Below, in pieces: positions 2,249 through 18,189 of a DNA stretch of 32,000 bases. Numbering within the stretch: the stretch's first letter is position 1; every line of letters starts with the position of its first letter. The notes under the pieces were generated by a model that worked only from the letters and a program-made list of their open reading frames with translations, was not told the DNA's origin and made no database searches. The translations under genes were made by a program, and so were the position numbers. Origin of the DNA: Ruminococcus albus 7 = DSM 20455 (GTDB lineage Bacteria; Bacillota; Clostridia; Oscillospirales; Ruminococcaceae); the NCBI RefSeq assembly GCF_000179635.2, contig NC_014833.1:3653409-3685408 (forward strand), in the 5' to 3' direction.

Positions 2249-2758
2249 ATGAAGAAAATAACAGCTCGTGATTATCTGAGAATAATACGTGAGAACTACG
2301 GAACTATTCATTACTGCGCAGAAACCTGTGGATTCAAGTCAAGTGACTTCGGGAATATTGAAGCCGGGGTTGAGAACGATATCCGCGTGATAGCGAACAC
2401 GTTCTTTCTTTTCTCCCGGAGATTTGGATTGAACTACTATGAGCTCATGATGATGGAAGCTAAGTTTCAGCTAGGTGATGAACCACCCAAAACTAAACCT
2501 AAAGCAAATGTTTCATTTGCAGAACTGCTAAAGAAAACACGAACGCAGGCGGGTATATCACAAGCAAAGCTTGCGGATACTATCTGCTGCACTAAGTTCA
2601 CTGTATACACATGGGAATGTGGTGACAACATACCTGATCTAGAGATGCTCGAGCGTATCTGTTATGCATTGAAAGTTCCAGCCGATTTTTTCGATGCAGT
2701 ATACAAGGCTGAACGATTTCAGCCGAGAACACCAAGAGAAAGGAAAAAGAAAGAATGA
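2249..2758 (+). CDS. XRE-family HTH transcriptional regulator (two HTH-like segments)
   Basis: ATG at 2249 after the RBS GAGGAAAAGG. The C-terminal half, FAELLKKTRTQAGISQAKLADTICCTKFTVYTWECGDNIPDLEMLERICYALKV, is a classical XRE/Cro HTH. The stop overlaps the topB start (ATGA). Confidence 0.8.
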   Translation: MKKITARDYLRIIRENYGTIHYCAETCGFKSSDFGNIEAGVENDIRVIANTFFLFSRRFGLNYYELMMMEAKFQLGDEPPKTKPKANVSFAELLKKTRTQAGISQAKLADTICCTKFTVYTWECGDNIPDLEMLERICYALKVPADFFDAVYKAERFQPRTPRERKKKE

Positions 2759-4935: not shown

Positions 4936-4952
4936 TGTTTTAGATTAAGCGA

Positions 4953-5765: not shown

Positions 5766-5903
5766 AAACATAGTAGAATAAATTGTAAACACGTTCATTT
5801 GAAGCAAAATGAGCGTGTTTTGTTTTACATAACCGCCTTTCGAGTGAAGCAGAGAGGACGAATTTATCAAAGGGAGGTAAAGTAACCGGTTATACGCTTA
5901 CAG

Positions 5904-5919
5904 TGTGTCTATAGACACA
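5904..5919. repeat. Palindrome copy A (16-bp core only)
   Basis: TGTGTCTATAGACACA is a perfect palindrome. Flanks are ACAG / GTTC, so there is no arm extension. Confidence 0.95.
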
Positions 5920-5929
5920 GTTCAGCAAC

Positions 5930-5975
5930 CAAAAAGCGTCCGGCACTCACCAAAAGGTGGTGTCAGACGCTTTGT
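5930..5975. terminator. Bidirectional intrinsic terminator, mainly serving the minus-strand genes 7691<-6031
   Basis: Long imperfect hairpin at 5935-5971 (AGCGTC...GACGCT outer stem, CACC-AAAA-GGTG tip), flanked by an A-run on the left and a T-run on the right. Confidence 0.65.
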
Positions 5976-6030
5976 ATTCTTATTAGCTTATTGGTTGAGG
6001 TATAATAGTCTGTGCAATTTAACCTCATAC

Positions 6031-6246
6031 TCACTGAGGATTATTAGGGTTGTTATTCTTGTTTTTGCCTTTGCCTATATTTCTTAGAATGATACCAATC
6101 AACATAAGTAAAAGTACTCCACAAATGATGAATACGCCTATAATTCCTTCAGTTATGAGTTTCGAATTTGGAAAATAGAGGTCTGCAATCACTACCAAAA
6201 ACGCTACTATTCCCAACGCCAAAATAAAATCTCCAAACTTCTTCAT
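6031..6246 (-). CDS. Small membrane protein, two predicted TM helices, 71 aa
   Basis: Hydrophobic stretches FILALGIVAFLVVIADL and IIGVFIICGVLLLMLIGIIL with a Lys/Asn-rich tail. RBS GGAGG upstream. Confidence 0.7.
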   Translation of the reverse strand: MKKFGDFILALGIVAFLVVIADLYFPNSKLITEGIIGVFIICGVLLLMLIGIILRNIGKGKNKNNNPNNPQ

Positions 6247-6275
6247 AAAATAACCTCCTAATTAATATCATTGTT

Positions 6276-7691
6276 TTACGGTATATTATCGCTCATTGGG
6301 TCAGGTATAAGTTGAGGTATATCATCGCTCTTCGTTGTTTTTACGCTTTTGGCAAATTCATAAAACCAACTATCTGCGCTTTCAAGTTCTTCATCGGATA
6401 TGCTTTCTTTGCCATCGCATGGTGCAACAGCAAACGAGAACATAGTATCCACAAAGTTTTCATCCATGCAATGCACGTCTATTAATGAATAACTTCCTCT
6501 CTTGCTCTCATTCTTATAGTCATGCATGGTGTTATCTCTTAATATAATAACTGCTCTGTTTCCATCTTTTTTGATAGTATATGTAAACAGTTTAGAATCT
6601 ATATGTCCAAAAAGACTTAAATCTCTTATTTCTTTTTCACAAAGATTTTTAAGATTATCATCTGTGTATTCCGTAAGGTCAAGCTCCTTTGCACTACCAC
6701 CGAGTTTGTGTATCGCATATCTCTGATCGTTCACTTCATATACGTAAGCACATTTCTCGTAGTTCATATATGCGGGAAGTTCATAGTTTATATCGAAACT
6801 GTAATCACTCATTTGATCCCAAGAGCAACTCGAGAAGCTTTTTATTTCCTCTGGTTTCGGAATATCTTCAAATGAACCGATATAATGTTTTGCCGAATTT
6901 AAATATTCGCTGTTAATCCAAATGTTCGATACAGTTTTAGTTTTAAGGTCTATTTTTACTTCATAATAATACCCGGTTCTGCTGTAAACACCCTCTTCTA
7001 ATTCTTTTTGGTATGATGTGATGCTGGAATCAAGAATATCATTATTTCCTTTTGGTTCAATATAAGCATCCGTCACCATATCCTTTATGTAAAAAAGAGT
7101 ATCCACATCTTCTAAATCGGGTTCGCCCCAAAGCTTGCGGACATCCTCTATCGGCATACCTACCTTTACTCCTTTTGGAAATACCACATCATTAATGTCT
7201 GATAATGAAATAACATTACAATCCGATAATAACTGCTTTTCATCTTTTGTTTTAGTGAAGAAAAAGCTTGTTTTAACATCATCGATAATAACATCATAAA
7301 TACTCGATTCTGCAATGACCGTCGATGGATCATCACCTTGGGTTATTCCATCATTCGCATCATCAGCAAGTTCTACACCGTCCATGTCAAACAGTTCCTT
7401 AGCCGTCATGGGCAATTTTATAACCTTTTCACCCACCTGAAACACATCAGTATACATATCCGCATTCAGTACTTCATCAGCTATCTTTGTTTCAGAATCG
7501 CTTTCATTCTCCGCGGCACTGTCATTATTTTGATTTTCTTCATTTCCACTTTTTTCGACTTCTGTTTTATCATTAGAAATTTTACTGGACTGTGTAACGA
7601 TTTTACTTTCGTTATCTGCATTTCCGCAGCCTGTGATACAGCCACAGATGCATACAGCCGTTATGAGTGATATTAATGCTTTTGTTTTCAT
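6276..7691 (-). CDS. Lipoprotein of unknown function (471 aa)
   Basis: Start moved to the ATG at 7691 (RBS AAGGAG). The N-terminus MKTKALISLITAVCICGCITGCGN is a signal peptide with a lipobox Cys. Confidence 0.8.
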   Translation of the reverse strand: MKTKALISLITAVCICGCITGCGNADNESKIVTQSSKISNDKTEVEKSGNEENQNNDSAAENESDSETKIADEVLNADMYTDVFQVGEKVIKLPMTAKELFDMDGVELADDANDGITQGDDPSTVIAESSIYDVIIDDVKTSFFFTKTKDEKQLLSDCNVISLSDINDVVFPKGVKVGMPIEDVRKLWGEPDLEDVDTLFYIKDMVTDAYIEPKGNNDILDSSITSYQKELEEGVYSRTGYYYEVKIDLKTKTVSNIWINSEYLNSAKHYIGSFEDIPKPEEIKSFSSCSWDQMSDYSFDINYELPAYMNYEKCAYVYEVNDQRYAIHKLGGSAKELDLTEYTDDNLKNLCEKEIRDLSLFGHIDSKLFTYTIKKDGNRAVIILRDNTMHDYKNESKRGSYSLIDVHCMDENFVDTMFSFAVAPCDGKESISDEELESADSWFYEFAKSVKTTKSDDIPQLIPDPMSDNIP

Positions 7692-7919
7692 AAAAATACT
7701 CCTTAGAATATGATTTTGTAACATAAATATTATACCTGAATTAAGAAAAGATGTCAATAGATTTGTTAGGTGTCCTTAAATAAAACGTAAGATAATATAA
7801 TTTTAGCTGTACAATATAACTCCCTAATAGACATTGACTTTTTTACTAAGCTATGATATATTATTAGTTATAAACAAACTGTCTATGAAAGTATATGATT
7901 TCAAATGGAGGTGCTAGTC

Positions 7920-8336
7920 ATGAATAATAAACTAATTAACAATGAAACTGAAAAATTTGGTCTAAAAGTGGGTGCTGTTTCATTACTTATCAACACTGGC
8001 ATAGCTTATTTGTATATGTCTCGTTTTCAAGGTTTTGATACTGGCATACAGATATTATTAGCTTTTCTGATAACGATTCTTATGCCGATTGTTTTTCTCG
8101 TATGCGTTCAACATAAATTCAATATTAGTTTAATAATACTAGCAATATCATCTATATGGTATGCAGGCTTCATTACTGGCTTTGGCGTACATCTATTCAA
8201 ATATAAGGAAATAACACTATTACGTACTATTGCTTTTTTAATAATAGGGATAATGGAATATGGTTTTCATATGTATATCTGGTTTTTCCTTGATCAGATA
8301 ATAATTAAATATAAGCACATAATGCGCCGAAAATAA
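7920..8336 (+). CDS. Integral membrane protein, about 4 TM helices, 138 aa
   Basis: ATG at 7920 after the RBS GGAGGTG. The ORF is highly hydrophobic. Promoter TTGACT-17-TATATT upstream. Confidence 0.7.
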   Translation: MNNKLINNETEKFGLKVGAVSLLINTGIAYLYMSRFQGFDTGIQILLAFLITILMPIVFLVCVQHKFNISLIILAISSIWYAGFITGFGVHLFKYKEITLLRTIAFLIIGIMEYGFHMYIWFFLDQIIIKYKHIMRRK

Positions 8337-8352
8337 TCTTTAAAAAGTATAC

Positions 8353-8368
8353 TGTGTCTATAGACACA
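8353..8368. repeat. Palindrome copy B (16-bp core; only the right flank is consensus-like, CTTT)
   Basis: TGTGTCTATAGACACA with flanks ATAC / CTTTTC. Confidence 0.95.
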
Positions 8369-8377
8369 CTTTTCAAG

Positions 8378-8420
8378 AGACACCCATTCAAGCTAATGAA
8401 GCCTGAATGGGTGTCTTTTA
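8378..8420. terminator. Intrinsic terminator hairpin between convergent genes
   Basis: AGACACCCATTCA (8378-8390), 13-nt loop, TGAATGGGTGTCT (8404-8416), then TTTTATT. Confidence 0.7.
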
Positions 8421-8425
8421 TTGAT

Positions 8426-8614
8426 TTACAGCGTTTTCCCATAATATTTGATTGTCTTTATGATAGGATCTCCACAATTATTGACTTTGCCAAGCTTAAT
8501 CAATTCTTCATGTACCACCTGTTCCGCCTGCTCTTTGGATTCAGCACTTACCGCAACACACTTTGGTATACTCTTGAAATTCGACCACCGGAAATACACG
8601 TTGTAAATATTCAT
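8426..8614 (-). CDS. Small hypothetical protein, 62 aa (last gene of a four-gene operon)
   Basis: RBS AGGTAGGTGA upstream. Tightly packed behind the upstream genes. Confidence 0.6.
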   Translation of the reverse strand: MNIYNVYFRWSNFKSIPKCVAVSAESKEQAEQVVHEELIKLGKVNNCGDPIIKTIKYYGKTL

Positions 8615-8626
8615 TCTATCACCTAC

Positions 8627-8839
8627 CTAAAAAACACATTCCTTAACACCGTATATAAACACATTGCCGTACTCACGATATGCTATGCCTTTTGAAATCA
8701 ACAATTCAGAAAACTCTTTAAGTTGCTTATCAGTCATAGCAAATGTGACATTATATAAATCATTTTTCATTGGCTTCAAATCGCAGGGAGGACTATTCTT
8801 GATATTATTAATAAGCACTATAAACCTTTCATTAGTCAT
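8627..8839 (-). CDS. Small hypothetical protein, 70 aa
   Basis: The ATG at 8839 overlaps the TGA of the upstream gene (TGATG coupling). RBS GGGGGTGA. The listed start at 8842 is a TTG. Confidence 0.6.
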   Translation of the reverse strand: MTNERFIVLINNIKNSPPCDLKPMKNDLYNVTFAMTDKQLKEFSELLISKGIAYREYGNVFIYGVKECVF

Positions 8840-9024
8840 CAACTCACCCCCTCTCGTCTAACATCTTCAGCTTCCATGAAGTAGAAGTATCCATCATTGA
8901 GTCTGTTCAGCTCGTTGCAGTTTTCCTGAGCTTCTTTATCCGTACAGTATTTAGTCGATACGTGAAGATCTCTGCAAGTAGCCTTTTCACCAATCTGCTT
9001 GAAAAAATAGTGAACTGTTTTCAT
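8839..9024 (-). CDS. Small hypothetical protein, 61 aa
   Basis: The ATG at 9024 follows AAGGAG, which lies at the 3' end of the upstream 53-aa ORF. Confidence 0.6.
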   Translation of the reverse strand: MKTVHYFFKQIGEKATCRDLHVSTKYCTDKEAQENCNELNRLNDGYFYFMEAEDVRREGVS

Positions 9025-9028
9025 ATCC

Positions 9029-9190
9029 TCACTCCTTCAATATCTTCGCACTGAGTATCTTGATGTTGCCACTTCCGTAATGATCCTTAACGATCTGGAT
9101 CGCCTGCCGGCGGTCATTAACTCCGTACACTCTTGTTCTCTCATGGAAACAAAGTCCTTTGAACATAAATACTACAATGTAATCTTTCAT
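9029..9190 (-). CDS. Small hypothetical protein, 53 aa (below the ORF-track cutoff)
   Basis: Hand translation from the ATG at 9190 (RBS AAAGAGGTG) gives MKDYIVVFMFKGLCFHERTRVYGVNDRRQAIQIVKDHYGSGNIKILSAKILKE, with the stop at 9029-9031. It is the first gene of the operon. Confidence 0.55.
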   Translation of the reverse strand: MKDYIVVFMFKGLCFHERTRVYGVNDRRQAIQIVKDHYGSGNIKILSAKILKE

Positions 9191-9244
9191 GTTAGCACCT
9201 CTTTCAATTTTTTAGGGGATTTCTTATTACATATATAGTATAAC

Positions 9245-9342
9245 ATATTGCTAGCAATATTTCAATTGACATTTTATCTGATTATTGCTAGCAATATTTG
9301 TATACTATTGATATTGCTAGCAATAAAGTATTGTGCTATAAT
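9245..9342. promoter_or_regulatory. Divergent control region with three copies of the palindromic operator TATTGCTAGCAATA, plus the + strand promoter
   Basis: Palindromes at 9245-9260 (16 bp), 9283-9296 and 9312-9325 (14 bp each). The promoter is TTGCTA (9315-9320, inside the third operator), 16 nt spacer, TGcTATAAT (9334-9342). Confidence 0.7.
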
Positions 9343-9361
9343 AATCATGGAGGTGATCTCA

Positions 9362-9571
9362 ATGTCTGAGAATAATGAAAAGAAAACCTACTACAAAAAA
9401 ACACAGAGTAAGTCGGTTGTAAAGTATATCTCAAATAACTACGATCAAATCTCGGTCCGCATACCCAAAGGCAGCCGTGAGCGTTACAAGGAATTTGCTG
9501 AAAAGTGCGGTACAAGCCTTAATTCACTTATAGTTGAATTATTGGAACGTGAAATGAACAATGAGGATTGA
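9362..9571 (+). CDS. RHH (Arc/MetJ/CopG-like) transcriptional regulator, 69 aa
   Basis: ATG at 9362 after GGAGGTG. The segment QISVRIPKGSRERYKEFAEKCGTSLNSLIVELLEREM shows the classical RHH strand-helix-helix pattern. Confidence 0.75.
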   Translation: MSENNEKKTYYKKTQSKSVVKYISNNYDQISVRIPKGSRERYKEFAEKCGTSLNSLIVELLEREMNNED

Positions 9572-9598
9572 TTTTTTTCTTTTCTCTAGGATACTATA

Positions 9599-9620
9599 AA
9601 GTGTGTCTATAGACACACTT
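9599..9620. repeat. Palindrome copy C (22-bp perfect palindrome)
   Basis: AAGTGTGTCTATAGACACACTT. It is preceded by the T/C-rich block TTTTTTTCTTTTCTC (9572-9586). Confidence 0.95.
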
Positions 9621-9623
9621 CGA

Positions 9624-9652
9624 TTGACATAATAACAAACAAATGATATAAT
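9624..9652 (+). promoter_or_regulatory. Consensus promoter of the HipA-like gene
   Basis: TTGACA (9624-9629), 17 nt spacer ending in TGA, TATAAT (9647-9652). It starts 4 nt after palindrome C. Confidence 0.6.
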
Positions 9653-9672
9653 GTTCTAAAGGCGGTGAGGTA

Positions 9673-10806
9673 ATGAACAGATACAATATAATGCACAAGG
9701 ACAAGCTAGTTGCACAGGCTGAAGACAGCAGAGTTACTGCGGTCTTTGATAAGGCTCTATGCCCAAACAGTATTTTTGTAGATGCCGACCTTGAGGTGTG
9801 GCTAAAAAGCAGGAGTATCGATACTCATCGTTCTAATTCCCGCAGGCTTTACAAATTTCTTCGCATGAAAACTGATGCGGATATTGATGAGATAATCAAT
9901 ATCGGTCACGGTATAACAATTACAGATAACTGGTGGATACAGCGTGAGGACGAGATGCTTGACTATTCGTCGCTAAAACAGTATAATGAAGAGCTTGCTG
10001 ATATTTCCTTATACGGTTTTTCCAACAAGTGTAAAGATAAATCAAAAGGATACACTCAGCTTGGTACGATCGGAAGCTATGAAAAAGCATGGCGTTTTTC
10101 AGACGATGCATGGTATATGTACAAGTTGGGCAGTAAAACAGAACTTATCTCGGAATACTATGCGCACTGCTTTCTGAAAAAGTTGAATGTGAATTGTGCC
10201 GAGTACAAGGTTGAAAGACGTGTACTTGAAACGGGTCTTGAACAGGAATGTATCATAACCAAAGATTTTACGCAGAATGCGCTTTTCGATTTTGAACCAT
10301 TCTTCAATTATTTCAACGATAACGAAGATCCTGATTTCATACTGACAAGACTTGCTCAGATGGAAAAGAATAATACCATGTCGGGGCTTGTAGAGGATTA
10401 TGTTAAGATGTGCTATTATGATGCGCTTCTTATGAACGTTGACAGACACAATCTTAACGCAGGATTTCTCAGGGACAGCGAAAACGGAGGTATACTGTGT
10501 CTTGCTCCATGCTTTGATTATAATCTTTCGCTTTCCGCTGCCGTATCACTGCATTTTAGTGAAGATAAATCGGACCTCATGAAGTATTTCACCGAGAACG
10601 ATAGGCTCATGGAAGTCATGGATCCTCTTATGCCCGGGAGAGAAGAAATAATTTCTGCGGTCGAAACAGCAGAGAAAAAGACGAAATTAGCCTTTCCTAA
10701 TGACAATTTCAAATATTCGCTGTTCAGCGATTATGTTATTTCGGCTTATGACTATTGCGGTAAAATGATATCAAAAGAAAATAAAAACACCTATTCAAGA
10801 CGCTGA
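9673..10806 (+). CDS. HipA-like serine/threonine kinase domain protein (toxin-like), 377 aa
   Basis: The C-terminal half carries LLMNVDRHNLNAGFL ... LAPCFDYNLSL. This matches the HipA-family catalytic (D.H..N) and Mg-binding (AP.[FY]D) motifs from memory. Confidence 0.65.
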   Translation: MNRYNIMHKDKLVAQAEDSRVTAVFDKALCPNSIFVDADLEVWLKSRSIDTHRSNSRRLYKFLRMKTDADIDEIINIGHGITITDNWWIQREDEMLDYSSLKQYNEELADISLYGFSNKCKDKSKGYTQLGTIGSYEKAWRFSDDAWYMYKLGSKTELISEYYAHCFLKKLNVNCAEYKVERRVLETGLEQECIITKDFTQNALFDFEPFFNYFNDNEDPDFILTRLAQMEKNNTMSGLVEDYVKMCYYDALLMNVDRHNLNAGFLRDSENGGILCLAPCFDYNLSLSAAVSLHFSEDKSDLMKYFTENDRLMEVMDPLMPGREEIISAVETAEKKTKLAFPNDNFKYSLFSDYVISAYDYCGKMISKENKNTYSRR

Positions 10807-10825
10807 GCCTGAATAGGTGTTTTTT
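10783..10825 (+). terminator. Intrinsic terminator overlapping the 3' end of the HipA-like gene
   Basis: ACACCTATTCA (10787-10797), loop containing the TGA stop (10804-10806), TGAATAGGTGT (10810-10820), then TTTTT. Confidence 0.75.
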
Positions 10826-10844
10826 CTTTTCTCGCAGATAGTTC

Positions 10845-10868
10845 AAAGTGTGTCTATAGACACACTTT
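10845..10868. repeat. Palindrome copy D (24-bp perfect palindrome)
   Basis: AAAGTGTGTCTATAGACACACTTT. It is preceded by TTTTTCTTTTCTC (10821-10833) plus 11 nt. Confidence 0.95.
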
Positions 10869-10901
10869 AGAAAATGGGCTATTGTTTACAACTCAATATC
10901 T

Positions 10902-11273
10902 TCATCTACTTTTTTCTTGTTCTTTTAAATATCTCTTAATTGCGCTATCGACGAATGCTATAATAGCAGCATTCAAGTCTTCTGGGGTCTTTTCCAACTC
11001 TATATCTTCCGGGGTCGTAGGCTTTTTTCTATTTTCATACCAATAGCAGAACAAAGCTATTACACCGTTAATTTGTACATCAGAATAGTTTTCAAATTCC
11101 TTCTCAACATAAGATATTAAATCGTCAGTATCCTTGATTTTTTCTTGAGCAAAAGCATTGATATCTTCATTATTATCAATGATAATGTTATTTTCTTTTA
11201 AAAAATCCTGAAAATCATCGGGATTAATAGATGAAAAGTTCTTAGCAAAATTGTCAAATATACAATAATTCAT
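10902..11273 (-). CDS. Acidic hypothetical protein, 123 aa
   Basis: Own consensus promoter on the minus strand: TTGACA (plus-strand coordinates 11331-11336), 17 nt spacer, TATAAT (11308-11313). RBS AAGAGGTG. About 26 Asp+Glu versus about 14 Lys+Arg by hand count. Confidence 0.65.
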   Translation of the reverse strand: MNYCIFDNFAKNFSSINPDDFQDFLKENNIIIDNNEDINAFAQEKIKDTDDLISYVEKEFENYSDVQINGVIALFCYWYENRKKPTTPEDIELEKTPEDLNAAIIAFVDSAIKRYLKEQEKSR

Positions 11274-11357
11274 ATGGACACCTCTTATCTACAAATTAAT
11301 ATGATTAATTATATCAAAAACACACCATATTGTCAAGTCATATAAGAGTGTACTATC

Positions 11358-14144
11358 TTACTTCCCTTCCGTCAACTTCTGATACATCTTCATCAGCTCC
11401 GCCACACACTCACTCTCAGTCATGGTCTTGTAGTCAAAGCCGTATGCCTGCATCACAGCCTTATCGTTGAGTTGGTGAGCCTTTCGCAGTTCGGGTGGCA
11501 TAGTTGTTTCATCGTAGAGATCGGCAAGGGAGCAGTCGGGATATTTGGCTCTTGCATCGAGTATCATCTGTGCTGTTTTTTCTATGGTTGCTTTCTGTTT
11601 TTCATCGGGACTGCACCATGGGAAGTTATTGTAAACAATGTTTATTGAATAACTGTAATCACTTTTTAGTCTACCAGTTACAGCTCTCATCCAAGCCATG
11701 TGGACATTTGATGTCAACACTCCAAATTGATATTTGTTTGCGTCGGGAATCATAAATAGCTTGTCTCCCGCAATTATATCAGATCCTAAATATCCCATAG
11801 GGATATAACGCCTGTTTTCAGATGATACCTTTGGAAGGGCTATAAATGTTTTGGGATTCATAGTTTCCCTAAATAAAGTCGGAGTTGCTGCAAGTTTCTG
11901 TCGTCCTTTATCTGGGCTTTTTTCTCTTGCTTCTTTACAACATTGTACCCTTTTCTTTACGATAGGCATTTTATTCAATTCAGCAGGAGAAGCACCAACA
12001 AGCCAAAGGCAATATCTTGGTACGTTGTTAATAAACTCGTATCCCATCATAAATCGCTTTATATATTTTGACGATAATGGCTCTTTATTTATAAGCTCAT
12101 CAGCTTCATCTGGAGAAAGAATTAAATACCCTCCATCAGTTGGTCTATTGCCGGATAGCATTTTTGGAATATTACAAATGGCTTTAGTTCTACTTTCAAT
12201 AAAAACATCATTTGCAGCAACAAGATAAGCATTGATATTCTTTACTATTTGTTCAACACCATTATCAAATAGTCTCCTATCCACTTTGTTTTCCGCAATA
12301 CTAAATCCCACAATAACACAATGAACTTTGGCTTTCAGACTTGCTTCACTGTCCCAGCGGAAAGTTCGGTGTGCAAAGTCAATATGTATTCCGAAACGGT
12401 CATACAGTGGTTTCCACACACCTGCGACCTGTTCGCCCTGCGTTATACTGTTGGTAGAAACAAAAGCGGTTCTGATATTGGTGCCGACCATAAGCTGTGA
12501 AGCCTTGAAATACCATGCAGCAACATAATCTATCTTACCGGCGGTCTTGTACGGATTTCCCTTATCGTCAACATAAATGCACAGTATATCATTTTTCTGA
12601 CTTTTCGATTGCAGAGAATAACCAACAAATGGCGGATTGCCCATAATGTAAGACAGCTTGTCCTTTGGAACGACACTCTCCCAGTCGATGCGGAGAGAAT
12701 TGCCCTCGGTGATATTTGCATAGCTTTTCAACGGCAAAAAATCAAGGGTATACTGTATGATCTCCTCGGTTTCGTGCATCATCTGCGCTTCGGCTATCCA
12801 GAGGGCTGTTTTGGCAACAGTCACAGCAAAGTCGTTTATCTCAATGCCGTAAAATTGCCCGATACCGACCTTAATAGGGTTAAAGTCACCCTCGCCGCCT
12901 ATGAGCATCTGACCGCCGTGTATTACTTGCAGCGCTTCATTCTCCAATCGGCGCAGACTTATGTATGTTTCCGTAAGGAAGTTACCTGAACCGCAGGCAG
13001 GATCGAGGAACGTGAGTGAAGCTAGCTTATCTCTGAACTGCTCCAATTTCGCTTTTCTTGTTTTATCGACCTTAGTTTCGCATATCGTATTGAATTCTGC
13101 TTTCAGCTCATCGAGGAAAAGAGGGTCAATGACCTTGTGGATATTCTCGATAGAGGTATAGTGCATACCGCCTGAACGTCTTGTTTCGGGGTTCAGAGTG
13201 CTTTCAAATACTGCGCCGAAGATCGTCGGGCTGATCTCCGACCAGTCAAATCCTGCGCTTGCATTGTTCACAAGCAGATCCACGATTTCATCTGTAAAAC
13301 GCGGAATTTCGATGTTTTCATCGGCAAACAAGCCACCGTTCACATAAGGGAACGCAGCAAGGTCATCGTCCATATAGGGGTCACGATCTTCGGGTTTGGT
13401 GTCAAGAACCGTGAACAGCTCGATAAGTGCCTTGCGGATATCTTTTGCTTGAAACTGTTTCAGATACCGCCCGAACATTTCATGCTTGCCGAAAATGCCT
13501 GCATCTTCCGCATACAGGCAGAATACAAGCCTTACGCACAGCATATTTAGGCTTTTCAGCGTATCAGGACTATCAGGCTCCTTGTACTGTTTCAGGATAG
13601 CATCATACAGCTTACCAACAAGCTCACCTGCCTTCAAGGAAATTTCCATTTCCTTTTTCAGCATTTCGCTACCTGTTTCCACAAGGAATTGCAGACGGTA
13701 GTAGTCCTTTGCAAGGTCTTTCAAGAATATCTGCTCAGGCTCACCGTTGGGCTTTTCCATGTCGTAGACAAGGAATTCCTCGAAGTTGCAAGTCACTATC
13801 CATCGAGGGTGCTGCGATAACGGCAGCTCCGTCACATAACGCTTCGCTTGCTGGAACGGATTGAGCAAACTTCCGTCCGATTGCTTAATAGCCTTGCGTA
13901 AGTCTTTGCCGATAGACTTCTGTTCTATCATAACACGTGTGGACTTTATATAACCGTCAATAAATGATGTGTGATCCAGATGCACCTGATCTTCAAAAGT
14001 AATAAAGCCCATAGCATTTTCTATACCGTAAACGTGTTCAAGCAAGTCAGTCCAGAACTGCTGTGACTGTCCTTTTTCATAGCCTTTACCCTTCCAACGC
14101 TCGGCAAACTCCTTCGCTGCCTTTTTCTGTTCTTTTTCAGTCAT
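11358..14144 (-). CDS. MmeI-family Type IIL/IIG restriction-modification enzyme (fused nuclease, N6-adenine methyltransferase and specificity domain), 928 aa
   Basis: Start moved to the ATG at 14144 (MTEKEQKK). N-terminal PD-(D/E)xK-like FIDGYIKSTRVMIEQKS, AdoMet motif FLDPACGSGNFL, catalytic motif GNPPFVGY. Size and domain order match MmeI-like enzymes. Confidence 0.85.
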   Translation of the reverse strand: MTEKEQKKAAKEFAERWKGKGYEKGQSQQFWTDLLEHVYGIENAMGFITFEDQVHLDHTSFIDGYIKSTRVMIEQKSIGKDLRKAIKQSDGSLLNPFQQAKRYVTELPLSQHPRWIVTCNFEEFLVYDMEKPNGEPEQIFLKDLAKDYYRLQFLVETGSEMLKKEMEISLKAGELVGKLYDAILKQYKEPDSPDTLKSLNMLCVRLVFCLYAEDAGIFGKHEMFGRYLKQFQAKDIRKALIELFTVLDTKPEDRDPYMDDDLAAFPYVNGGLFADENIEIPRFTDEIVDLLVNNASAGFDWSEISPTIFGAVFESTLNPETRRSGGMHYTSIENIHKVIDPLFLDELKAEFNTICETKVDKTRKAKLEQFRDKLASLTFLDPACGSGNFLTETYISLRRLENEALQVIHGGQMLIGGEGDFNPIKVGIGQFYGIEINDFAVTVAKTALWIAEAQMMHETEEIIQYTLDFLPLKSYANITEGNSLRIDWESVVPKDKLSYIMGNPPFVGYSLQSKSQKNDILCIYVDDKGNPYKTAGKIDYVAAWYFKASQLMVGTNIRTAFVSTNSITQGEQVAGVWKPLYDRFGIHIDFAHRTFRWDSEASLKAKVHCVIVGFSIAENKVDRRLFDNGVEQIVKNINAYLVAANDVFIESRTKAICNIPKMLSGNRPTDGGYLILSPDEADELINKEPLSSKYIKRFMMGYEFINNVPRYCLWLVGASPAELNKMPIVKKRVQCCKEAREKSPDKGRQKLAATPTLFRETMNPKTFIALPKVSSENRRYIPMGYLGSDIIAGDKLFMIPDANKYQFGVLTSNVHMAWMRAVTGRLKSDYSYSINIVYNNFPWCSPDEKQKATIEKTAQMILDARAKYPDCSLADLYDETTMPPELRKAHQLNDKAVMQAYGFDYKTMTESECVAELMKMYQKLTEGK

Positions 14145-14248
14145 AGTAATACCCCCATGAATGGAATGATTATCACCATACATTATATCATATTTTCTTG
14201 AATGGTTCAACTGAAATTACATAATTTTGATATTTTTATAAAAGGCAC

Positions 14249-14277
14249 TTGACAAATAAGCTAAAATCTATTATAAT
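14249..14277 (+). promoter_or_regulatory. Consensus promoter for 14340..16010
   Basis: TTGACA (14249-14254), 17 nt spacer, TATAAT (14272-14277). The upstream context AAAAGGCACTTGACAAATAA closely resembles the promoter at 17300. Confidence 0.6.
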
Positions 14278-14339
14278 ATAGGAAATTGCTAGATACTTTT
14301 ATCGAAACGCTTAATGATTCAATCGAAAGGAGAAAATCA

Positions 14340-15419
14340 ATGAAACAAGTAAAAATACAAAAAAACATCAACCTACGTGACCAAAAAACAAAAAACTTAA
14401 TTGAAAAGCGTAGTGCTGATTTGGCACAAGAATTAAATCAATCGACATCATTCGTGATAGAAAAAGCTTTACTCGAAGGGTTATTTCCCAAAAATAAGGA
14501 AGCATGGGATTTGACAACAAATTTTCTTTACAGTGATGAACCCAATAGCGTAAAAGATACGCTTTATGCTGTCTTTCAAAAAAATACAACAGGAATCCGA
14601 AACTCAGTACATGATAATTTATTGCCGATAGTAATGTTTTGTTTAAAACACTATAAGGGTCCTTCTAGTTTTTCATTTAAAAATCAGGAACTATATCATC
14701 TTATTGATCAGCTAAACTTAATAATTAAAAGAGTAGAAAATTGTGTTTCCGGAACAATTGATACAAAGGAAAGAGCATTTTTATATGACAGAGCAATTAA
14801 TGCAGCGGATTTGATTAAAAGACTCAAAGAAAGTCCGGAAAAGATTAACCCATATTATATTTTTGAACTAATAGCCGACTTTTTTGCGATGCTTGATGAT
14901 TTTCTTTATGCTTTCACAGCATTATGCGATTTAACTACGATTTGTCAATTTGAGGAAAATGTAAACACGAGGATTGAGCTATTTAATATAATATGTGAAC
15001 TTTCAACTGATTGGGATTCAGAGCCTGAAAAAGAAGATAACAAAATGAGCATATATCCTGAGCTTTACTTATTAAATCGAGTTAAATTTAAAGTTATTGA
15101 GGATGAGCGTTTTCCTACTGATTCTCTTGGCGTTTATGCCAATGATGCTTGTGTTGGATATATAACTCCTGTAATGGATCAATTACTCTGGAAAAAAAGT
15201 TTTGACATAGATAATCCTCGATACCAATTCAAGGATGAAGACATATTTGCATCAGTAGTGGCAGAGTTAAAGAAATATAAAAACGATCATGGATACAAAT
15301 ACTTAGTAATAGATAGTTTGTGCGAAGGATATGCAAGTATACTTGACCACGCATTGATTAGTCGAGTAGGATTTAAACAATTACCGGATAATCATCCATC
15401 ACTCTATTATTTAGAGTAG
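14340..15419 (+). CDS. Hypothetical protein, 359 aa, with an RHH-like N-terminus and a possible GNAT-like C-terminal region (weak)
   Basis: ATG at 14340 after AAAGGAG. The N-terminus KQVKIQKNINLRDQKTKNLIEKRSADLAQELNQSTSFVIEKALLEG has an RHH-like pattern. The C-terminus ...GVYANDACVGYITPV...VVAELKKYKNDHGYKYLVIDSLCEGYASILDHALISRVGF loosely resembles an acetyltransferase fold. Confidence 0.5.
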   Translation: MKQVKIQKNINLRDQKTKNLIEKRSADLAQELNQSTSFVIEKALLEGLFPKNKEAWDLTTNFLYSDEPNSVKDTLYAVFQKNTTGIRNSVHDNLLPIVMFCLKHYKGPSSFSFKNQELYHLIDQLNLIIKRVENCVSGTIDTKERAFLYDRAINAADLIKRLKESPEKINPYYIFELIADFFAMLDDFLYAFTALCDLTTICQFEENVNTRIELFNIICELSTDWDSEPEKEDNKMSIYPELYLLNRVKFKVIEDERFPTDSLGVYANDACVGYITPVMDQLLWKKSFDIDNPRYQFKDEDIFASVVAELKKYKNDHGYKYLVIDSLCEGYASILDHALISRVGFKQLPDNHPSLYYLE

Positions 15420-15437
15420 GATAAGGAGGATATAAAA

Positions 15438-16010
15438 GTGAGAATATCAGATTTACATTTTTCAGATGAAACAGAGTTATCATATTCGGCAATAACTCCG
15501 TATTTATTTAAAAAGGAAAATGAAAACGGAGCAGCTGAATATAATGAATTAGTGAAAGCACTTATCAAAAATGCTGCTGACACAGATGATTTTGTAGCTA
15601 GTTATCTTGATGAAGCAACTGCTGTAAAACATAATTATTACAAGTCCGAATGTTACCAGATCATGCTAAAAATATATGACAACAATAAAGCTAAAGAATA
15701 CTGCCGTAAAATGCTCGGAAGAAAATCGAGAACTACAATATCTGATGCAGAATCACTAAAAATTGGAAATGAAAACTCTGTGATGTATATTCCTTCTTTA
15801 GGCACAAGCACATATACACGTTATGCAATATTAGAAAAAAATGAATTTTACGCCGATAACATTATGACTCATATGTTATCATTTGAAGGTACCAAGTTTA
15901 ATATCTATCTGCAAGACAAAGGAGAAGAAAATAAAATTGACAAAGTATTGGATAACGGCAAATATAGTGTATATTCATTCGATGGGATAATGGCACTAGT
16001 AAAAGAATAA
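15438..16010 (+). CDS. Hypothetical protein, 190 aa (GTG start)
   Basis: The GTG at 15438 lies 8 nt after the strong RBS AAGGAGG and 19 nt after the preceding stop, so it is probably co-transcribed. Confidence 0.6.
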   Translation: MRISDLHFSDETELSYSAITPYLFKKENENGAAEYNELVKALIKNAADTDDFVASYLDEATAVKHNYYKSECYQIMLKIYDNNKAKEYCRKMLGRKSRTTISDAESLKIGNENSVMYIPSLGTSTYTRYAILEKNEFYADNIMTHMLSFEGTKFNIYLQDKGEENKIDKVLDNGKYSVYSFDGIMALVKE

Positions 16011-16024
16011 AAAAGCATCAAAAA

Positions 16025-16064
16025 AGCACTCATTCAAAATTTAATCATGAAAGAGTGCTTTTTT
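16025..16064 (+). terminator. Intrinsic terminator
   Basis: AGCACTCATTCA (16025-16036), loop, TGAAAGAGTGCT (16048-16059, one mismatch), then a T-run. Confidence 0.7.
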
Positions 16065-16122
16065 AAGAAATCATTCGTACTGTAAATTCACATAAAATAC
16101 GATTCTTTTTCTCCTGGACAAT

Positions 16123-16148
16123 TAAAGTGTGTCTATAGACACACTTTA
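16123..16148. repeat. Palindrome copy E (26-bp perfect palindrome), overlapping the integrase stop codon
   Basis: TAAAGTGTGTCTATAGACACACTTTA. The integrase stop codon (TAA on the minus strand) occupies 16146-16148. Confidence 0.95.
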
Positions 16149-17120
16149 GTAAATCTCATCAAGCTTTGTCATCGCAGTCTTTTTTTGCTCCTCTATGACA
16201 TGATAATAGAACTTCATCGTTATCGAAATATCAGAATGACCTAGGATCTCGGAAACGACCTTAATATCAGTTCCTTGTCTGAGCAGCAGCGTTGCAAATG
16301 TATGACGCAGCGCGTGAACAATGTCTTTCTTCCCGTTAATTCCGCAGTTTTTAAGTATACGCGACATAGTGCGATGAATAGCACTTGGATCAACTAACAG
16401 ACCATTCTCCGTGGTGACTATCCTATCATTATCTCCCATTATAGCGTGTATCTTTACTAAAGCATCAAGTGCTGTTTTATTGAGTGGAACATAACGAACA
16501 GAATTTCGTGATTTGGGAGAATTTACTATCTTTTCATACTTCATGCTGCTGTCCCCTCTTGTTTTTACCGACGAAACGCTGTTATGTACGTAAACTATTT
16601 TATTTGTAAAATCTACATCAGACCAACTAAGTGCAAGAGCCTCCCCAACACGCAGACCGGTATTTAGCATAAACACGATGAAATAACCGTACCTATACTT
16701 AAAACTGCCATTATTATAAGTTGAAATAGCTTCGGCAGCAATCGCCCTCGCCTGTTCGGGAGAGTAATATACTACCGTTTCATCAGATTTATTATTTTTG
16801 GGAAGAACAACCGATAGTATAGGATTCTTCTTTATATCCCCTTTTAAAACCGCAAGGTCAAGACAACTCTTCAGATTAACGTATGCTTTTTTGGTAGTAC
16901 TATAAGAAGAACGTTCTGAAAGATTATTCAACATCATTTGAATATCATCAGCAGTCAGTTTCTTTAACTTTATTTTGCCTATAGCCGGGAAGATCTGATA
17001 ATTTAGGCTCTGTTCTACCCTATCATACGAAGAACGCTTTAATGATGGGCGTTTAGTATTAATAAGCCATTTTGTCATGTACTCCTCGACTGTGTTGTTG
17101 CTCTGTTTCTCGAATAACAT
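16146..17120 (-). CDS. Tyrosine site-specific recombinase / integrase, 324 aa
   Basis: Start moved to the ATG at 17120 (RBS GGAGGA). N-terminal SAM-like core-binding domain. Catalytic motifs TGLRVGEALAL (Arg I), HALRHTFAT (H-x-x-R) and LGHSDISITMKFYYH (His/Tyr). Confidence 0.9.
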   Translation of the reverse strand: MLFEKQSNNTVEEYMTKWLINTKRPSLKRSSYDRVEQSLNYQIFPAIGKIKLKKLTADDIQMMLNNLSERSSYSTTKKAYVNLKSCLDLAVLKGDIKKNPILSVVLPKNNKSDETVVYYSPEQARAIAAEAISTYNNGSFKYRYGYFIVFMLNTGLRVGEALALSWSDVDFTNKIVYVHNSVSSVKTRGDSSMKYEKIVNSPKSRNSVRYVPLNKTALDALVKIHAIMGDNDRIVTTENGLLVDPSAIHRTMSRILKNCGINGKKDIVHALRHTFATLLLRQGTDIKVVSEILGHSDISITMKFYYHVIEEQKKTAMTKLDEIY

Positions 17121-17170
17121 TAAAAATATCCTCCAAAGTATGTATTCCTGTGCAAAAACGCACAAGAAAT

Positions 17171-17199
17171 ATAATACCAAAAAGAGGATAACACGTCAA
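17171..17199 (-). promoter_or_regulatory. Probable integrase promoter
   Basis: On the minus strand: TTGACG (plus-strand coordinates 17194-17199), 17 nt spacer, TATTAT (17171-17176). Confidence 0.5.
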
Positions 17200-17299
17200 T
17201 AAATTATATAAAAATACACATCTGATATATCAATATATATATCAGCGAGAAAAAGAACAAACAAATTAAAATTTATTCAAAATTATTTTTTGAAAAGGC

Positions 17300-17328
17300 T
17301 TGACAAATAAAAAACGATGTGCTATAAT
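17300..17328 (+). promoter_or_regulatory. Near-perfect sigma-A promoter firing into ORF-free sequence
   Basis: TTGACA (17300-17305), 17 nt spacer ending in TGC (extended -10), TATAAT (17323-17328). Confidence 0.65.
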
Positions 17329-17334
17329 ACATAT

Positions 17335-18049
17335 AGTGGGCTAGAACAACAAAACACCCACCTGTGGCTTAAATGAACGCCAATTCAAGTAAGCCATCAG
17401 CACAAATGCTCGGCTAAAGCAGATGTGAGACTTTTACAGATGGATGCATCAATGTCCATGTTATCTATTATAGCATGGTTTTGATATATTTGTCAAGGAG
17501 TTTTCAGTATGCTTTTGCGAGTAGTGCTGAGAACTCTTTTCTTTTTCCCGTAAGACTTACGGATCCTACGGCTGACTCCAGTTGAACTGAATAGCCAGAG
17601 AGAGAAAGTAACCTCGACGAGACCTCAATAACTGCTGAATCATTCAGCTGCATTGAAACAGTTTGCATTTGCAAGCCTGCCTAATGGCAGCTACCTCAAT
17701 GTACGCCGTGACCACTTAGTGACAGTAAGTGCAGCGAGTATAAACACTGTGGTGTGAGCTACCGGGGAGGTAATCGGGAAGTCATGGTCTGTATCGACTA
17801 TGCAAAGGGCGCAGCCGACAGCAAGGTGTATTTGCTAAAAGAGTTTGTCACTCTTCAGAATACACTGATGACTAGGCGATCTAAATGATCTGCGTCAAAA
17901 GGAAAACTTTCAAGGCAATCAAAAAAAGTTATTTCCGCTCTGCAACAGCGGTGATAATATAAAACCAACAGGCTGGTATAGCAGTACCGCTTGTTGGCAC
18001 AAATTCACTGAAACCAATGGACTTGTGCCAGCAAGTGAATTGCATACAC
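17335..18049 (+). ncRNA. Candidate large structured non-coding RNA (about 0.7 kb); class unverified, boundaries approximate
   Basis: The supplied track has no ORF of 60 aa or more on either strand between 17181 and 18413. A consensus promoter lies upstream. Many local hairpins are visible: 17548-17562, 17634-17648, 17677-17690, 17935-17951 and a 13-bp stem at 17965-17997. Interleaved pairings 17996-18002/18023-18029 and 18002-18009/18034-18041 have pseudoknot topology. Confidence 0.55.
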
Positions 18050-18065
18050 TGTGTCTATAGACACA
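18050..18065. repeat. Palindrome copy F (16-bp core; right flank CTTTAG as in D and E) at the element/chromosome junction
   Basis: TGTGTCTATAGACACA with flanks ACAC / CTTTAG. It lies 10 nt from the U-tract of the rrn-tRNA operon terminator. Confidence 0.95.
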
Positions 18066-18075
18066 CTTTAGATAT

Positions 18076-18110
18076 GAAAAGCCCCCGCAAGGGAATTTCT
18101 TCCCTCACGG
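18076..18110 (-). terminator. Intrinsic terminator of the rRNA-tRNA operon
   Basis: Minus-strand RNA CCGUGAGGGA-AGAAAU-UCCCUUGCGG (two G-U pairs), followed by GGGCUUUUC. Confidence 0.75.
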
Positions 18111-18116
18111 AGATAG

Positions 18117-18189
18117 CAGGGGCACCAAGGATCGAACTCGGGACACGCGGTTTTGGAGACCGCTGCTCTACCAGCTGAGCTATACCCCT
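18117..18189 (-). tRNA. tRNA-Trp (anticodon CCA)
   Basis: Hand-folded cloverleaf, 73 nt: acceptor AGGGGTA/TGCCCCT, anticodon loop CTCCAAA, T-loop TTCGATC, discriminator G. No encoded CCA. Confidence 0.93.

What the first reader, a model, noticed from the sequence alone, without database searches (positions are those of the whole stretch)
5904..18065. One perfect palindrome (core TGTGTCTATAGACACA) occurs six times, cuts the cargo region into modules and marks the element/chromosome junction
**What the sequence shows.** The identical 16-bp perfect palindrome lies at six positions:
- 5904-5919
- 8353-8368
- 9602-9617 (22-bp palindrome 9599-9620)
- 10849-10864 (24 bp, 10845-10868)
- 16128-16143 (26 bp, 16123-16148)
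- 18050-18065

A given 16-mer is expected about once per 4e9 bases, so six copies in 12 kb cannot be chance. I found no copy in the conjugation/replication block or in the 14 kb of housekeeping DNA.

**Placement.** Every copy is intergenic and sits at the 3' end of transcription units; five of the six lie between convergent units. The last copy is 10 nt from the U-tract of the rrn-tRNA terminator, so it sits at the junction with the chromosome. Copy E contains the stop codon of the only recombinase in the window, a tyrosine integrase.

**Interpretation.** The palindrome has the architecture of a tyrosine-recombinase core site: inverted arms around a short central region, for example TGTGT-CTATAG-ACACA. 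My working hypothesis is that these are recombination sites at which independent, self-promoted gene modules (5.9-8.35, 8.37-9.6, 9.6-10.85, 10.87-16.1 and 16.15-18.05 kb) were inserted or shuffled. That would be an accretion or cassette-type system distinct from classical integrons: the modules are multi-gene, carry their own promoters and occur in either orientation.

**Alternatives.** The palindromes could instead be operators of an element-wide regulator (like KorB sites on IncP plasmids) or a shared bidirectional terminator/insulator.
Basis: partly seen in the sequence, partly recalled or inferred. Interest (0 to 1): 0.85.

Follow-up and report, generated by a model that had tools for sequence, protein, structure and literature searches.

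The report
ParB-type binding sites punctuating ICE cargo
The six identical 16-base palindromes are real, but they are most likely docking sites (parS / KorB-operator type) for the partition protein ParB of a conjugative element of rumen Ruminococcus, not crossover sites of its integrase; gene modules nevertheless tend to be swapped at them.

Summary
TGTGTCTATAGACACA occurs exactly six times in 12 kb, with no near-copy elsewhere in the window.

The integrase reading does not hold:
- The integrase's attachment site is a 45-nt repeat of the tRNA-Trp 3' half, and identity with the circular or tandem form ends at window 18160. Copy F therefore lies 95 bp inside the element.
- The same 16-mer abuts integrases only 24-29% identical that target tRNA-Asn. 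Integrases 54-57% identical sit in elements with other palindromes.

The palindrome tracks a ParB instead (ParB_N plus HTH_ParB, next to ParA, just beyond the att site in the collinear R. albus AR67 element):
- All five ParB lineages of 48% identity or more, fetched through ParB alone, carry the palindrome or the variant TCTGTCTATAGACAGA beside or inside parB.
- ParBs of 36% identity or less carry none.
- The variant coincides with an R/K-to-V change in the HTH.

Best reading: an array of parS/OB-like ParB sites. Homology breakpoints between related elements do cluster at the sites (20 of 57), so they act as module boundaries, by an unknown mechanism. This is a new member of a known kind. ParB binding is inferred, not shown, and parAB lies outside the window.

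The parts
5904..5919 (.). PAL copy A, between module Y (5265-5765, +) and the lipoprotein module (-)
   Evidence: Exact match. A homology breakpoint against L065 and L003 falls at 5902.
8353..8368 (.). PAL copy B, followed by a bidirectional terminator
9599..9620 (.). PAL copy C (22-bp palindrome), 6 nt upstream of the -35 box of the 12/12 promoter (9624-9652) of the HipA_C-like gene
10845..10868 (.). PAL copy D (24 bp), after the terminator of the HipA_C-like gene
16123..16148 (.). PAL copy E (26 bp), containing the integrase stop codon. The other side is variable cargo.
   Evidence: In ten related loci homology breaks 0-36 bp from this copy.
18050..18065 (.). PAL copy F, between the structured non-coding region and the terminator. 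It lies 95 bp inside the element end and, in the circular/tandem form, about 415 bp upstream of parA.
   Evidence: It is absent at the same position in AR67 contig 64.
4951..4959 (.). Decayed remnant of a seventh PAL (gaTGTCTAT), at the left boundary of module Y just after the topoisomerase gene
   Evidence: L016 has an intact PAL followed by the same right flank. L003, L045, L023 and L065 have an intact PAL after the Topo stop codon.
16146..17120 (-). Tyrosine integrase, 324 aa (SAM-like domain plus catalytic domain, no arm-binding domain)
   Evidence: Pfam and NCBIfam. RBS and start codon read from the sequence.
18116..18160 (-). att core: the 3' 45 nt of tRNA-Trp, carried by the element. 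The crossover lies in or next to the anticodon loop.
   Evidence: Identity with AR67 contig 35 ends at 18160. The same 45-mer stands without a full tRNA at L084 6846 (attL), L010 5008, L040 2038 and L061 37.
18082..18113 (-). Terminator of the rrn-tRNA operon, element-borne in this strain
2755..4935 (+). Topoisomerase III-like gene, the last backbone gene before the PAL-punctuated cargo region
   Evidence: Pfam. The block upstream holds MobL relaxase, T4CP, two RHH genes, Rep wHTH and XRE.
9673..10806 (+). HipA_C-like gene, a PAL-flanked module conserved in 9 PAL-bearing loci

Best explanation
The palindrome is the specific binding and loading site (parS-like, or operator OB-like as for KorB) of a chromosomal-type ParB encoded by this family of integrative conjugative elements of rumen Ruminococcus. 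ParB is encoded with ParA just across the att site. That places it next to the integrase end in the circular form, and at the far left end, outside the window, in the integrated form.

A ParB dimer would read the two 8-bp half-sites through its HTH. By analogy with ParB, KorB and BisD it would then close as a nucleotide-dependent clamp and spread or slide from the roughly ten sites scattered over the element. That would build a partition complex and, where a site sits beside a promoter or RBS, damp expression.

Because the 16-26 bp are kept identical in otherwise unrelated cargo, and in several co-resident elements, the sites also serve as the points where modules are exchanged. These include whole integration modules. 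Exchange is probably by short-homology recombination.

Shown: the co-occurrence, the placement, the breakpoints and the att site. Inferred: ParB binding, clamp behaviour, repression and the recombination mechanism.
For: 1. AR67 contig 35 is collinear with window 5474-18160 at 90-96% identity. It continues from the tRNA-Trp fragment into parA and parB (ParB_N E=1.8e-11, HTH_ParB E=4.6e-6).
2. That ParB matches solved ParB/Spo0J/Noc structures over residues 45-229. The G..R of the GxxR nucleotide motif is invariant.
3. Loci fetched only through ParB homology:
   - L080 (49% identity): 5 exact PAL copies, one inside parB.
   - L085-87 (48%): 4-5 copies, one inside parB and one 42 bp after it.
   - L084 (99%): 2 copies.
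   - L079 (53%): the variant TCTGTCTATAGACAG(N) 5 times, plus 1 exact PAL.
   - L081 (54%): the variant 37 bp upstream of parA, and a near-copy 4 bp after the parB stop.
4. Negative controls: ParBs of 36% identity or less (L082/83 and 12 viral contigs) have no copy.
5. Covariation: ParBs reading S-R/K-E-Q in the HTH go with TGTG..CACA, and the two reading S-V-E-Q go with TCTG..CAGA.
6. A copy or near-copy lies 37-420 bp upstream of parA in L081, L040, L061, L036, L006 and AR67c35.
7. Placement is free with respect to genes, as for parS/OB: 3' ends, inside coding regions, and between promoter and RBS.
8. Precedents: KorB-OB on RK2 (PMC11790492) and BisD-bisS on ICEclc (PMC12409273).
Against: - parAB is not in the window. 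Its presence in this strain's element is inferred from collinear relatives.
- No binding data exist.
- The ParB-retrieved loci share other leading-region genes (ParA, a DUF3849 protein, a 224-aa protein). ParB is therefore the only shared protein with a known site-specific DNA-binding domain, but not the only shared protein.
- In the goat-rumen 'Eubacterium' MAG, which has at least 13 exact copies, parA is followed by a Zn-finger/RHH protein, and no ParB was seen in the 32 of 78 kb available.
- The covariation rests on one evolutionary event.
- The second motif position is H rather than E (GHHR against the canonical GERR), so CTPase activity is uncertain.
- ParB binding does not by itself explain three things: why a copy always abuts the integrase stop codon; why about 30 nt on one side (T-rich tract, CTC, NN, RGAYA) is conserved at many copies; and why breakpoints cluster there.
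Confidence: 0.65

Rival explanations
1. One reading: the palindromes are core sites (9-6-9) of the element's tyrosine integrase, which inserts, excises or inverts self-promoted modules between them, as in an integron or pdif-module system.
For: - The shape fits inverted arms around a 6-bp centre.
- A copy abuts the stop codon of the integrase in the window, R. albus 8, AR67 contig 64, the Eubacterium MAG and many metagenome loci.
- Modules are present or absent with a copy at each boundary.
- L076 keeps the arms AAAGTGTGT/ACACACTTT with another centre, CACGCGTG, which resembles spacer variants of lox/FRT.
Against: - The integrase's own att site is the tRNA-Trp 45-mer, which has no similarity to PAL.
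- An identical PAL sits beside integrases only 24-29% identical that use tRNA-Asn. Integrases 54-64% identical sit in elements with three different palindromes.
- The centre is palindromic, and its length would change from 6 to 8 bp between relatives.
- PAL arrays occur across more than 10 kb with no integrase gene within 10 kb.
- Copies lie inside coding regions.
- Many indels between relatives do not involve PAL.
Confidence: 0.06
2. The palindromes are operators of another element-encoded DNA-binding protein (an RHH, XRE or unknown protein) acting as a global regulator, and ParB merely co-occurs with them.
For: - The element encodes several RHH and XRE proteins.
- The Eubacterium-type element has an RHH/Zn-finger gene right after parA that is distantly similar to the window's Arc-like protein.
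- Copy C and several copies elsewhere sit at promoters or RBSs.
Against: - The Arc-like RHH gene (9362-9571) has its own triple operator, TATTGCTAGCAATA, in its promoter.
- No RHH or XRE protein was found shared between the window element and the ParB-retrieved loci.
- A 16-bp perfect palindrome kept invariant over many sites, inside parB and next to parAB, is the signature of ParB sites.
Confidence: 0.15
3. The sites are recombination points for a dedicated but unidentified enzyme, or for ParB-associated nicking. This would make the system a true cassette-exchange device rather than passive short-homology exchange.
For: - Breakpoints are enriched at the sites: 20 of 57, against roughly 3-7% expected from site density.
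- There is one copy per boundary at the three-state junction.
- Non-homologous integration modules are each flanked by two copies.
- An asymmetric flank is conserved.
Against: - No second recombinase is conserved among the loci.
- There is ascertainment bias, because most loci were fetched through the palindrome.
- No inversion of a module between relatives was seen.
- Several co-resident elements in one genome (AR67 has copies on 5 contigs) make ordinary recombination at identical 16-50 bp islands sufficient.
Confidence: 0.08
4. The palindrome works at the RNA level, as a 6-10 bp hairpin serving as terminator, insulator, processing site or mRNA stabiliser.
For: - Five of the six window copies lie at 3' ends between convergent units.
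- Copy B scores as a terminator on the minus strand.
- Several copies elsewhere precede RBSs inside operons.
Against: - A structure-only element would vary in sequence with compensating changes. Here 16 of 16 bases are fixed over more than 100 copies in different elements.
- There is no U-tract after most copies.
- True terminators stand beside A, B, D and F.
- Copies lie inside coding regions.
Confidence: 0.04

Closest known systems
KorB and its OB operators on IncP plasmid RK2 (PMC11790492)
   Same: Both involve a ParB-family protein and a short perfect palindrome repeated about a dozen times over a conjugative element. Some sites lie at promoters and some far from any. The sites serve both partition and element-wide silencing through a CTP-dependent sliding clamp.
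   Different: The host is a Gram-positive rumen bacterium and the replicon is an ICE integrated at tRNA-Trp, not a plasmid. The site differs in sequence and length (16 bp here, 13 bp for OB). No KorA or TrbA partner was identified. Here the sites concentrate at cargo-module boundaries and coincide with mosaic breakpoints. None of the biochemistry has been tested.
Chromosomal ParB/Spo0J-parS (16-bp TGTTNCACGTGAAACA)
   Same: The palindrome is 16 bp and begins TGT and ends ACA. The protein has a ParB_N plus HTH_ParB architecture and matches solved ParB/Spo0J/Noc structures. Several sites lie around parAB, and a site lies inside the parB gene in two lineages, as for B. subtilis spo0J (my own knowledge).
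   Different: The half-site differs (TGTGTCTA). The system is element-borne. The motif reads GHHR instead of GERR.
BisD-bisS of ICEclc (PMC12409273)
   Same: A ParB-like clamp encoded by an ICE loads at palindromic parS-like sites on the ICE and spreads over tens of kb to control ICE genes.
   Different: BisD has an extra activator domain and two 11-bp-arm sites, and it activates transfer genes. Here the ParB is a plain 298-aa protein next to ParA with about ten sites.
pdif modules (XerC/D sites flanking modules on Acinetobacter plasmids) and integron attC/attI (my own knowledge)
   Same: Multi-gene or single-gene modules are bounded by a repeated short site. Modules are present or absent between relatives, with one site per boundary.
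   Different: No cognate recombinase tracks the site. The site is a perfect palindrome with a symmetric centre. The only integrase present uses a tRNA att site.

Membership tests
parS / OB-type ParB binding site | Short (13-16 bp) palindrome repeated on the replicon | tested here: met
   A 16-bp perfect palindrome occurs 6 times in the window. Related elements carry 2-5 per 7-20 kb.
parS / OB-type ParB binding site | The same replicon encodes ParA and a ParB with ParB_N and HTH domains, with sites next to or inside parAB | tested here: met
   Met in collinear and related loci. parAB itself lies outside the window, so for this strain the feature is inferred.
parS / OB-type ParB binding site | The site sequence follows the ParB lineage: presence in close ParBs, absence in distant ones, and covariation with the recognition helix | tested here: met
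   All 5 lineages of 48% identity or more carry the site or a one-step variant. ParBs of 36% identity or less carry none. An R/K-to-V change goes with a G-to-C change at position 2. This is one event only, so it is suggestive.
parS / OB-type ParB binding site | Direct, specific ParB binding and nucleotide-dependent spreading | not testable with these tools
   Needs EMSA, ChIP-seq and CTP assays. Only the invariant G and R of the GxxR motif were seen.
Tyrosine-recombinase core site (lox/FRT/dif/pdif, attI/attC) | The site is where the cognate recombinase is known or inferred to cross over | tested here: not met
   The att site is the 45-nt tRNA-Trp 3' half, in direct repeat at both ends.
Tyrosine-recombinase core site (lox/FRT/dif/pdif, attI/attC) | The site sequence co-varies with the recombinase | tested here: not met
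   The same PAL occurs with integrases 24-29% identical, and different palindromes occur with integrases 54-64% identical.
Tyrosine-recombinase core site (lox/FRT/dif/pdif, attI/attC) | Asymmetric 6-8 bp overlap region of fixed length | tested here: not met
   The centre CTATAG/TATA is symmetric. The relative L076 has an 8-bp symmetric centre between the same arms.
Tyrosine-recombinase core site (lox/FRT/dif/pdif, attI/attC) | Rearrangement junctions fall at the sites | tested here: inconclusive
   Breakpoints are enriched at the sites and there is a three-state junction. However, there is ascertainment bias, no inversions were found, and short-homology recombination would give the same pattern.
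Intrinsic terminator / REP-like extragenic palindrome | A hairpin followed by a U-tract, or a structure conserved with variable sequence and genome-wide spread | tested here: not met
   Most copies have no U-tract and separate terminators stand alongside. The sequence is invariant. In AR67 all copies are in mobile-element contexts.

The most novel reading that the evidence does not exclude
The ParB sites double as the exchange points of a cassette system. Cargo modules, and even whole integration modules (integrase plus att plus a large RNA), would be swapped between co-resident elements specifically at ParB-bound palindromes. This could happen because the nucleoprotein complex or an associated nuclease promotes breakage and rejoining there. 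A partition/silencing site array would then also organise the modular evolution of the element.
Probability: 0.15. Interest if true: 0.75.

Novelty: new member of a known kind. Interest (0 to 1): 0.42.

Why it matters
- It defines a previously undescribed parS-like sequence and ParB clade on conjugative elements of rumen Firmicutes. No paper in the library contains the sequence.
- It extends the KorB/BisD type of element-wide ParB site array to Gram-positive ICEs.
- It gives a simple marker, the 16-mer, for finding these elements and their cargo boundaries in rumen metagenomes.
- If the sites really channel module exchange, they would explain how defence, toxin-antitoxin and integration modules are shuffled among these elements.
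- The site/ParB pairs (TGTG and TCTG types) could also serve as orthogonal DNA-labelling tools.

Tried and rejected
- **Restriction or MmeI target.** Rejected: PAL occurs in elements without that gene, and MmeI-type sites are short and asymmetric.
- **Operator of the Arc-like RHH.** Rejected: that gene has its own triple operator, TATTGCTAGCAATA.
- **oriT or relaxase site.** No copy lies near the MobL relaxase gene in this element.
- **MITE, IS ends or REP.** There is no target duplication and no transposase. The unit is only 16-50 bp, and it is confined to mobile elements.
- **Rfam.** Nothing matched for the palindrome or for 17150-18120.
- **Literature search for the sequence.** No hits.
- **Looking up the window's T4CP fragment (207-788).** Not on record.
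- **Plasmid collection.** It holds only ParB relatives below 35% identity.
- **Inverted modules between relatives.** None found in 56 PAL-bounded segments.
- **Left end of the element.** I could not reach it in the window's own genome, so parAB there is inferred.
- **L076 contig.** I could not obtain the rest of it to ask which ParB goes with its different palindrome.

Full report
**1. Observation**

TGTGTCTATAGACACA occurs exactly at 5904, 8353, 9602, 10849, 16128 and 18050. No other site in the 32 kb matches with up to three mismatches. Chance expectation is 0.2, and none of 100 shuffles reached six. The 22, 24 and 26-bp extensions at copies C, D and E are as stated.

The window reads as follows:
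- The C-terminus of a T4CP, two RHH genes, a Rep-like wHTH, an XRE gene and a topoisomerase III-like gene (to 4935).
- A 13-kb cargo region with self-promoted modules. These are a lipoprotein, small genes plus an Arc-like RHH, a HipA_C-like gene and an MmeI-like enzyme.
- A tyrosine integrase (16146-17120, minus strand), then about 900 bp of non-coding DNA, copy F, a terminator, and tRNA-Trp/Met/Glu/Lys followed by an rrn operon on the minus strand.

The left part of the window is identical to GCA_000621285.1 contig JHYT01000024. There a MobL relaxase and the full T4CP lie upstream, and those 12 kb contain no palindrome.

**2. Where else the palindrome occurs**

An exact 19-mer (PAL plus CTT) was found among one genome for each of 185,579 species. 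It occurred only in R. albus AR67 (five contigs), R. albus 8, Ruminococcus MAGs and one goat-rumen 'Eubacterium sp.' MAG contig. It also occurred in 49 metagenome stretches, mostly rumen or gut. A few unrelated marine, soil or eukaryotic hits were set aside.

The contexts are conjugative-element genes. Counting loci that carry each family: integrase 16, topoisomerase 12, HipA-like 9, TcpH-like and TcpE-like membrane proteins 8 each.

Copies are not only at 3' ends:
- One lies in codons 6-11 of a 909-aa TcpH-like gene.
- Three lie between promoter or preceding gene and the RBS of successive small genes in the MAG.
- One lies between a -10 box and the RBS downstream of parB.

**3. The integrase uses a tRNA att site**

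AR67 contig 35 (L001 plus L010, contiguous) is collinear with window 5474-18160 at 90-96% identity. Identity runs through copy F, the terminator and 45 nt of tRNA-Trp, and stops at 18160 in the anticodon loop. AR67 then continues with parA and parB and has no complete tRNA.

The same 45-mer, again without a full tRNA, stands at the left end of an integrated copy in another R. albus genome (L084 6846). It also stands upstream of parA in L040 and L061. The att core is therefore the tRNA-Trp 3' half, and the terminator and copy F are element DNA. The element/chromosome junction is 95 bp to the right of copy F. In AR67 contig 64 the same non-coding region abuts the terminator with no palindrome at all.

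**4. The palindrome does not follow the integrase**

The integrase has only a SAM-like and a catalytic domain. Contexts of integrase homologues gave the following:
- L075 (57% identity, also at tRNA-Trp) has seven copies of CACCCTRC-CACGCGTG-GYAGGGTG.
- L076 (54% identity, same MobL/T4CP/Rep backbone) has four copies of AAAGTGTGT-CACGCGTG-ACACACTTT at the ends of toxin-antitoxin modules.
- L077 and L078 (51% identity) have none.

Conversely, the integrases of the MAG element and of L027 both lie beside tRNA-Asn or its fragment. They are 24-29% identical to the window's integrase, yet the exact PAL sits 7 nt from the stop codon of the MAG integrase and flanks both integration modules. This, the symmetric centre and the copies inside genes reject the integrase core-site reading.

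**5. The palindrome follows ParB**

The AR67 protein after ParA has ParB_N and HTH_ParB domains. It matches solved ParB, Spo0J and Noc structures over residues 45-229. Homologues are few. Their contexts were fetched through the protein alone:

| Locus | ParB identity | Palindromes found |
|---|---|---|
| L080 | 49% | 5 exact PAL, one inside parB |
| L085-87 | 48% | 4-5 copies, one inside parB (encoding SVSIDT) and one 42 bp after the stop |
| L084 | 99% | 2 copies |
| L079 | 53% | 5 copies of TCTGTCTATAGACAG(N), plus 1 exact PAL |
| L081 | 54% | TCTGTCTATAGACAGA 37 bp before parA, and TTTGTCTAAAGACAGA 4 bp after parB |

None of these stretches has an integrase within 10 kb.

ParBs of 36% identity or less (L082/83 and twelve viral contigs) have no copy. 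L036, found through PAL, pairs the exact site with a ParB only 27% identical.

In the alignment, the G and R of the GxxR motif are invariant. The HTH reads S-R/K-E-Q in PAL-type ParBs and S-V-E-Q in the two TCTG-type ParBs. That is a single covariation event.

A copy or near-copy lies 37-420 bp upstream of parA in six element types. In the circular form, the six window copies lie within 13 kb of parAB.

**6. Module boundaries**

Between the topoisomerase gene and the lipoprotein module there are three states:
- One PAL (L045, L023, L065).
- PAL, a 1-kb Cys-rich-protein module, then PAL (L003, with one copy degenerate; L021).
- In the window, a decayed PAL (4951-4959), module Y, then copy A. 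L016 shows an intact PAL at the left edge of a Y-like module.

Arms flanking each copy were clustered into 108 groups. The integrase-side arm joins eight different partner arms. Ten loci lose homology 0-36 bp from copy E.

Overall, 20 of 57 interior homology ends between the window and related loci lie within 40 bp of a copy. About 3-7% is expected from site density. Two caveats apply. Most loci were fetched through the palindrome, and many other indels do not involve it.

No inverted module was found. About 30 nt on one side of many copies is also conserved (a T-rich tract, CTC, NN, RGAYA, then 7-8 nt before PAL) and remains unexplained.

**7. Reading**

The palindrome is most likely a parS/OB-like ParB site array, as on RK2 (KorB, PMC11790492) and ICEclc (BisD, PMC12409273). 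Binding, clamp behaviour and silencing are inferred. The sites also behave as exchange points for modules. The simplest cause is recombination at the only identical islands shared by several co-resident elements. A dedicated mechanism is not excluded.

The sequence was not found in the literature library. I file this as a new member of a known kind.

**8. Side observations**

- The Arc-like RHH gene has three TATTGCTAGCAATA operators in its promoter.
- Window 17490-18049 is a conserved, strongly structured non-coding stretch. Its z-score is -5.9. It has 133 consensus pairs, 12 of them with compensatory changes, and many G-U pairs that work only on the plus strand. It has no Rfam match.
- A roughly 150-nt transcript from a perfect promoter at 17300 would be antisense to the integrase leader.

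Noticed in passing
window 17490-18049 (+): A conserved non-coding stretch of about 560 nt lies between the integrase region and copy F. The MFE z-score is -5.9 on the plus strand and -4.2 on the minus strand. Ten homologues (81-96% identity) give a consensus of 133 pairs, 12 with compensatory double changes, and many G-U pairs valid only on the plus strand. There is no Rfam hit even at E<=10. It is a candidate new large structured RNA of the ICE, next to attP. The MAG element also has about 1.3 kb of non-coding DNA in the same position.
   Followed up: partly
window 17300-17496: A perfect plus-strand promoter (17300-17328) and a terminator (17456-17478) predict an RNA of about 150 nt. It would be antisense to the leader of the integrase transcript, which starts from a perfect minus-strand promoter (17496-17467).
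   Followed up: no
window 9246-9259, 9283-9296, 9312-9325: Three exact copies of a second palindrome, TATTGCTAGCAATA, overlap the divergent promoters in front of the Arc-like RHH gene (9362-9571). This is probably its own operator.
   Followed up: partly
L076 6002, 11678, 12577, 13170; L075 7640, 8478, 9791, 10944, 10978, 12970, 13634: Related ICEs carry their own repeated palindromes at module ends. L076 has AAAGTGTGT-CACGCGTG-ACACACTTT, with the same arms as the window's site and a different, longer centre. L075 has CACCCTRC-CACGCGTG-GYAGGGTG, with the same centre and different arms. L075 also shows a duplicated integrase 3' fragment, suggesting tandem accretion at tRNA-Trp.
   Followed up: partly
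window about 9566-9601, 10812-10848, 16099-16127, and many loci: An asymmetric conserved flank stands on one side of many copies: TTTTTCTTTTCTC, NN, RGAYA, then 7-8 nt before PAL. The RGAYA lies about two helical turns from the AGACA of the palindrome. Its function is unknown.
   Followed up: partly
L079 19413 and L080 19912: An exact PAL lies inside the coding region of a homologous gene at the same position in two elements, followed by ...DLDDTLKAYLR. This holds even in L079, whose other sites are the TCTG variant.
   Followed up: no
L089 4664, 8862, 13258: A viral-collection contig with a ParB 30% identical has its own 12-bp palindrome, TCTACCGGTAGA, three times. One copy lies about 200 bp after the ParB match.
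   Followed up: no
window 11358-14210 (-): A complete MmeI-family type IIG restriction-modification enzyme, with all five MmeI domains, is cargo in the module between copies D and E. L049 lacks it, with no palindrome at the deletion ends.
   Followed up: no
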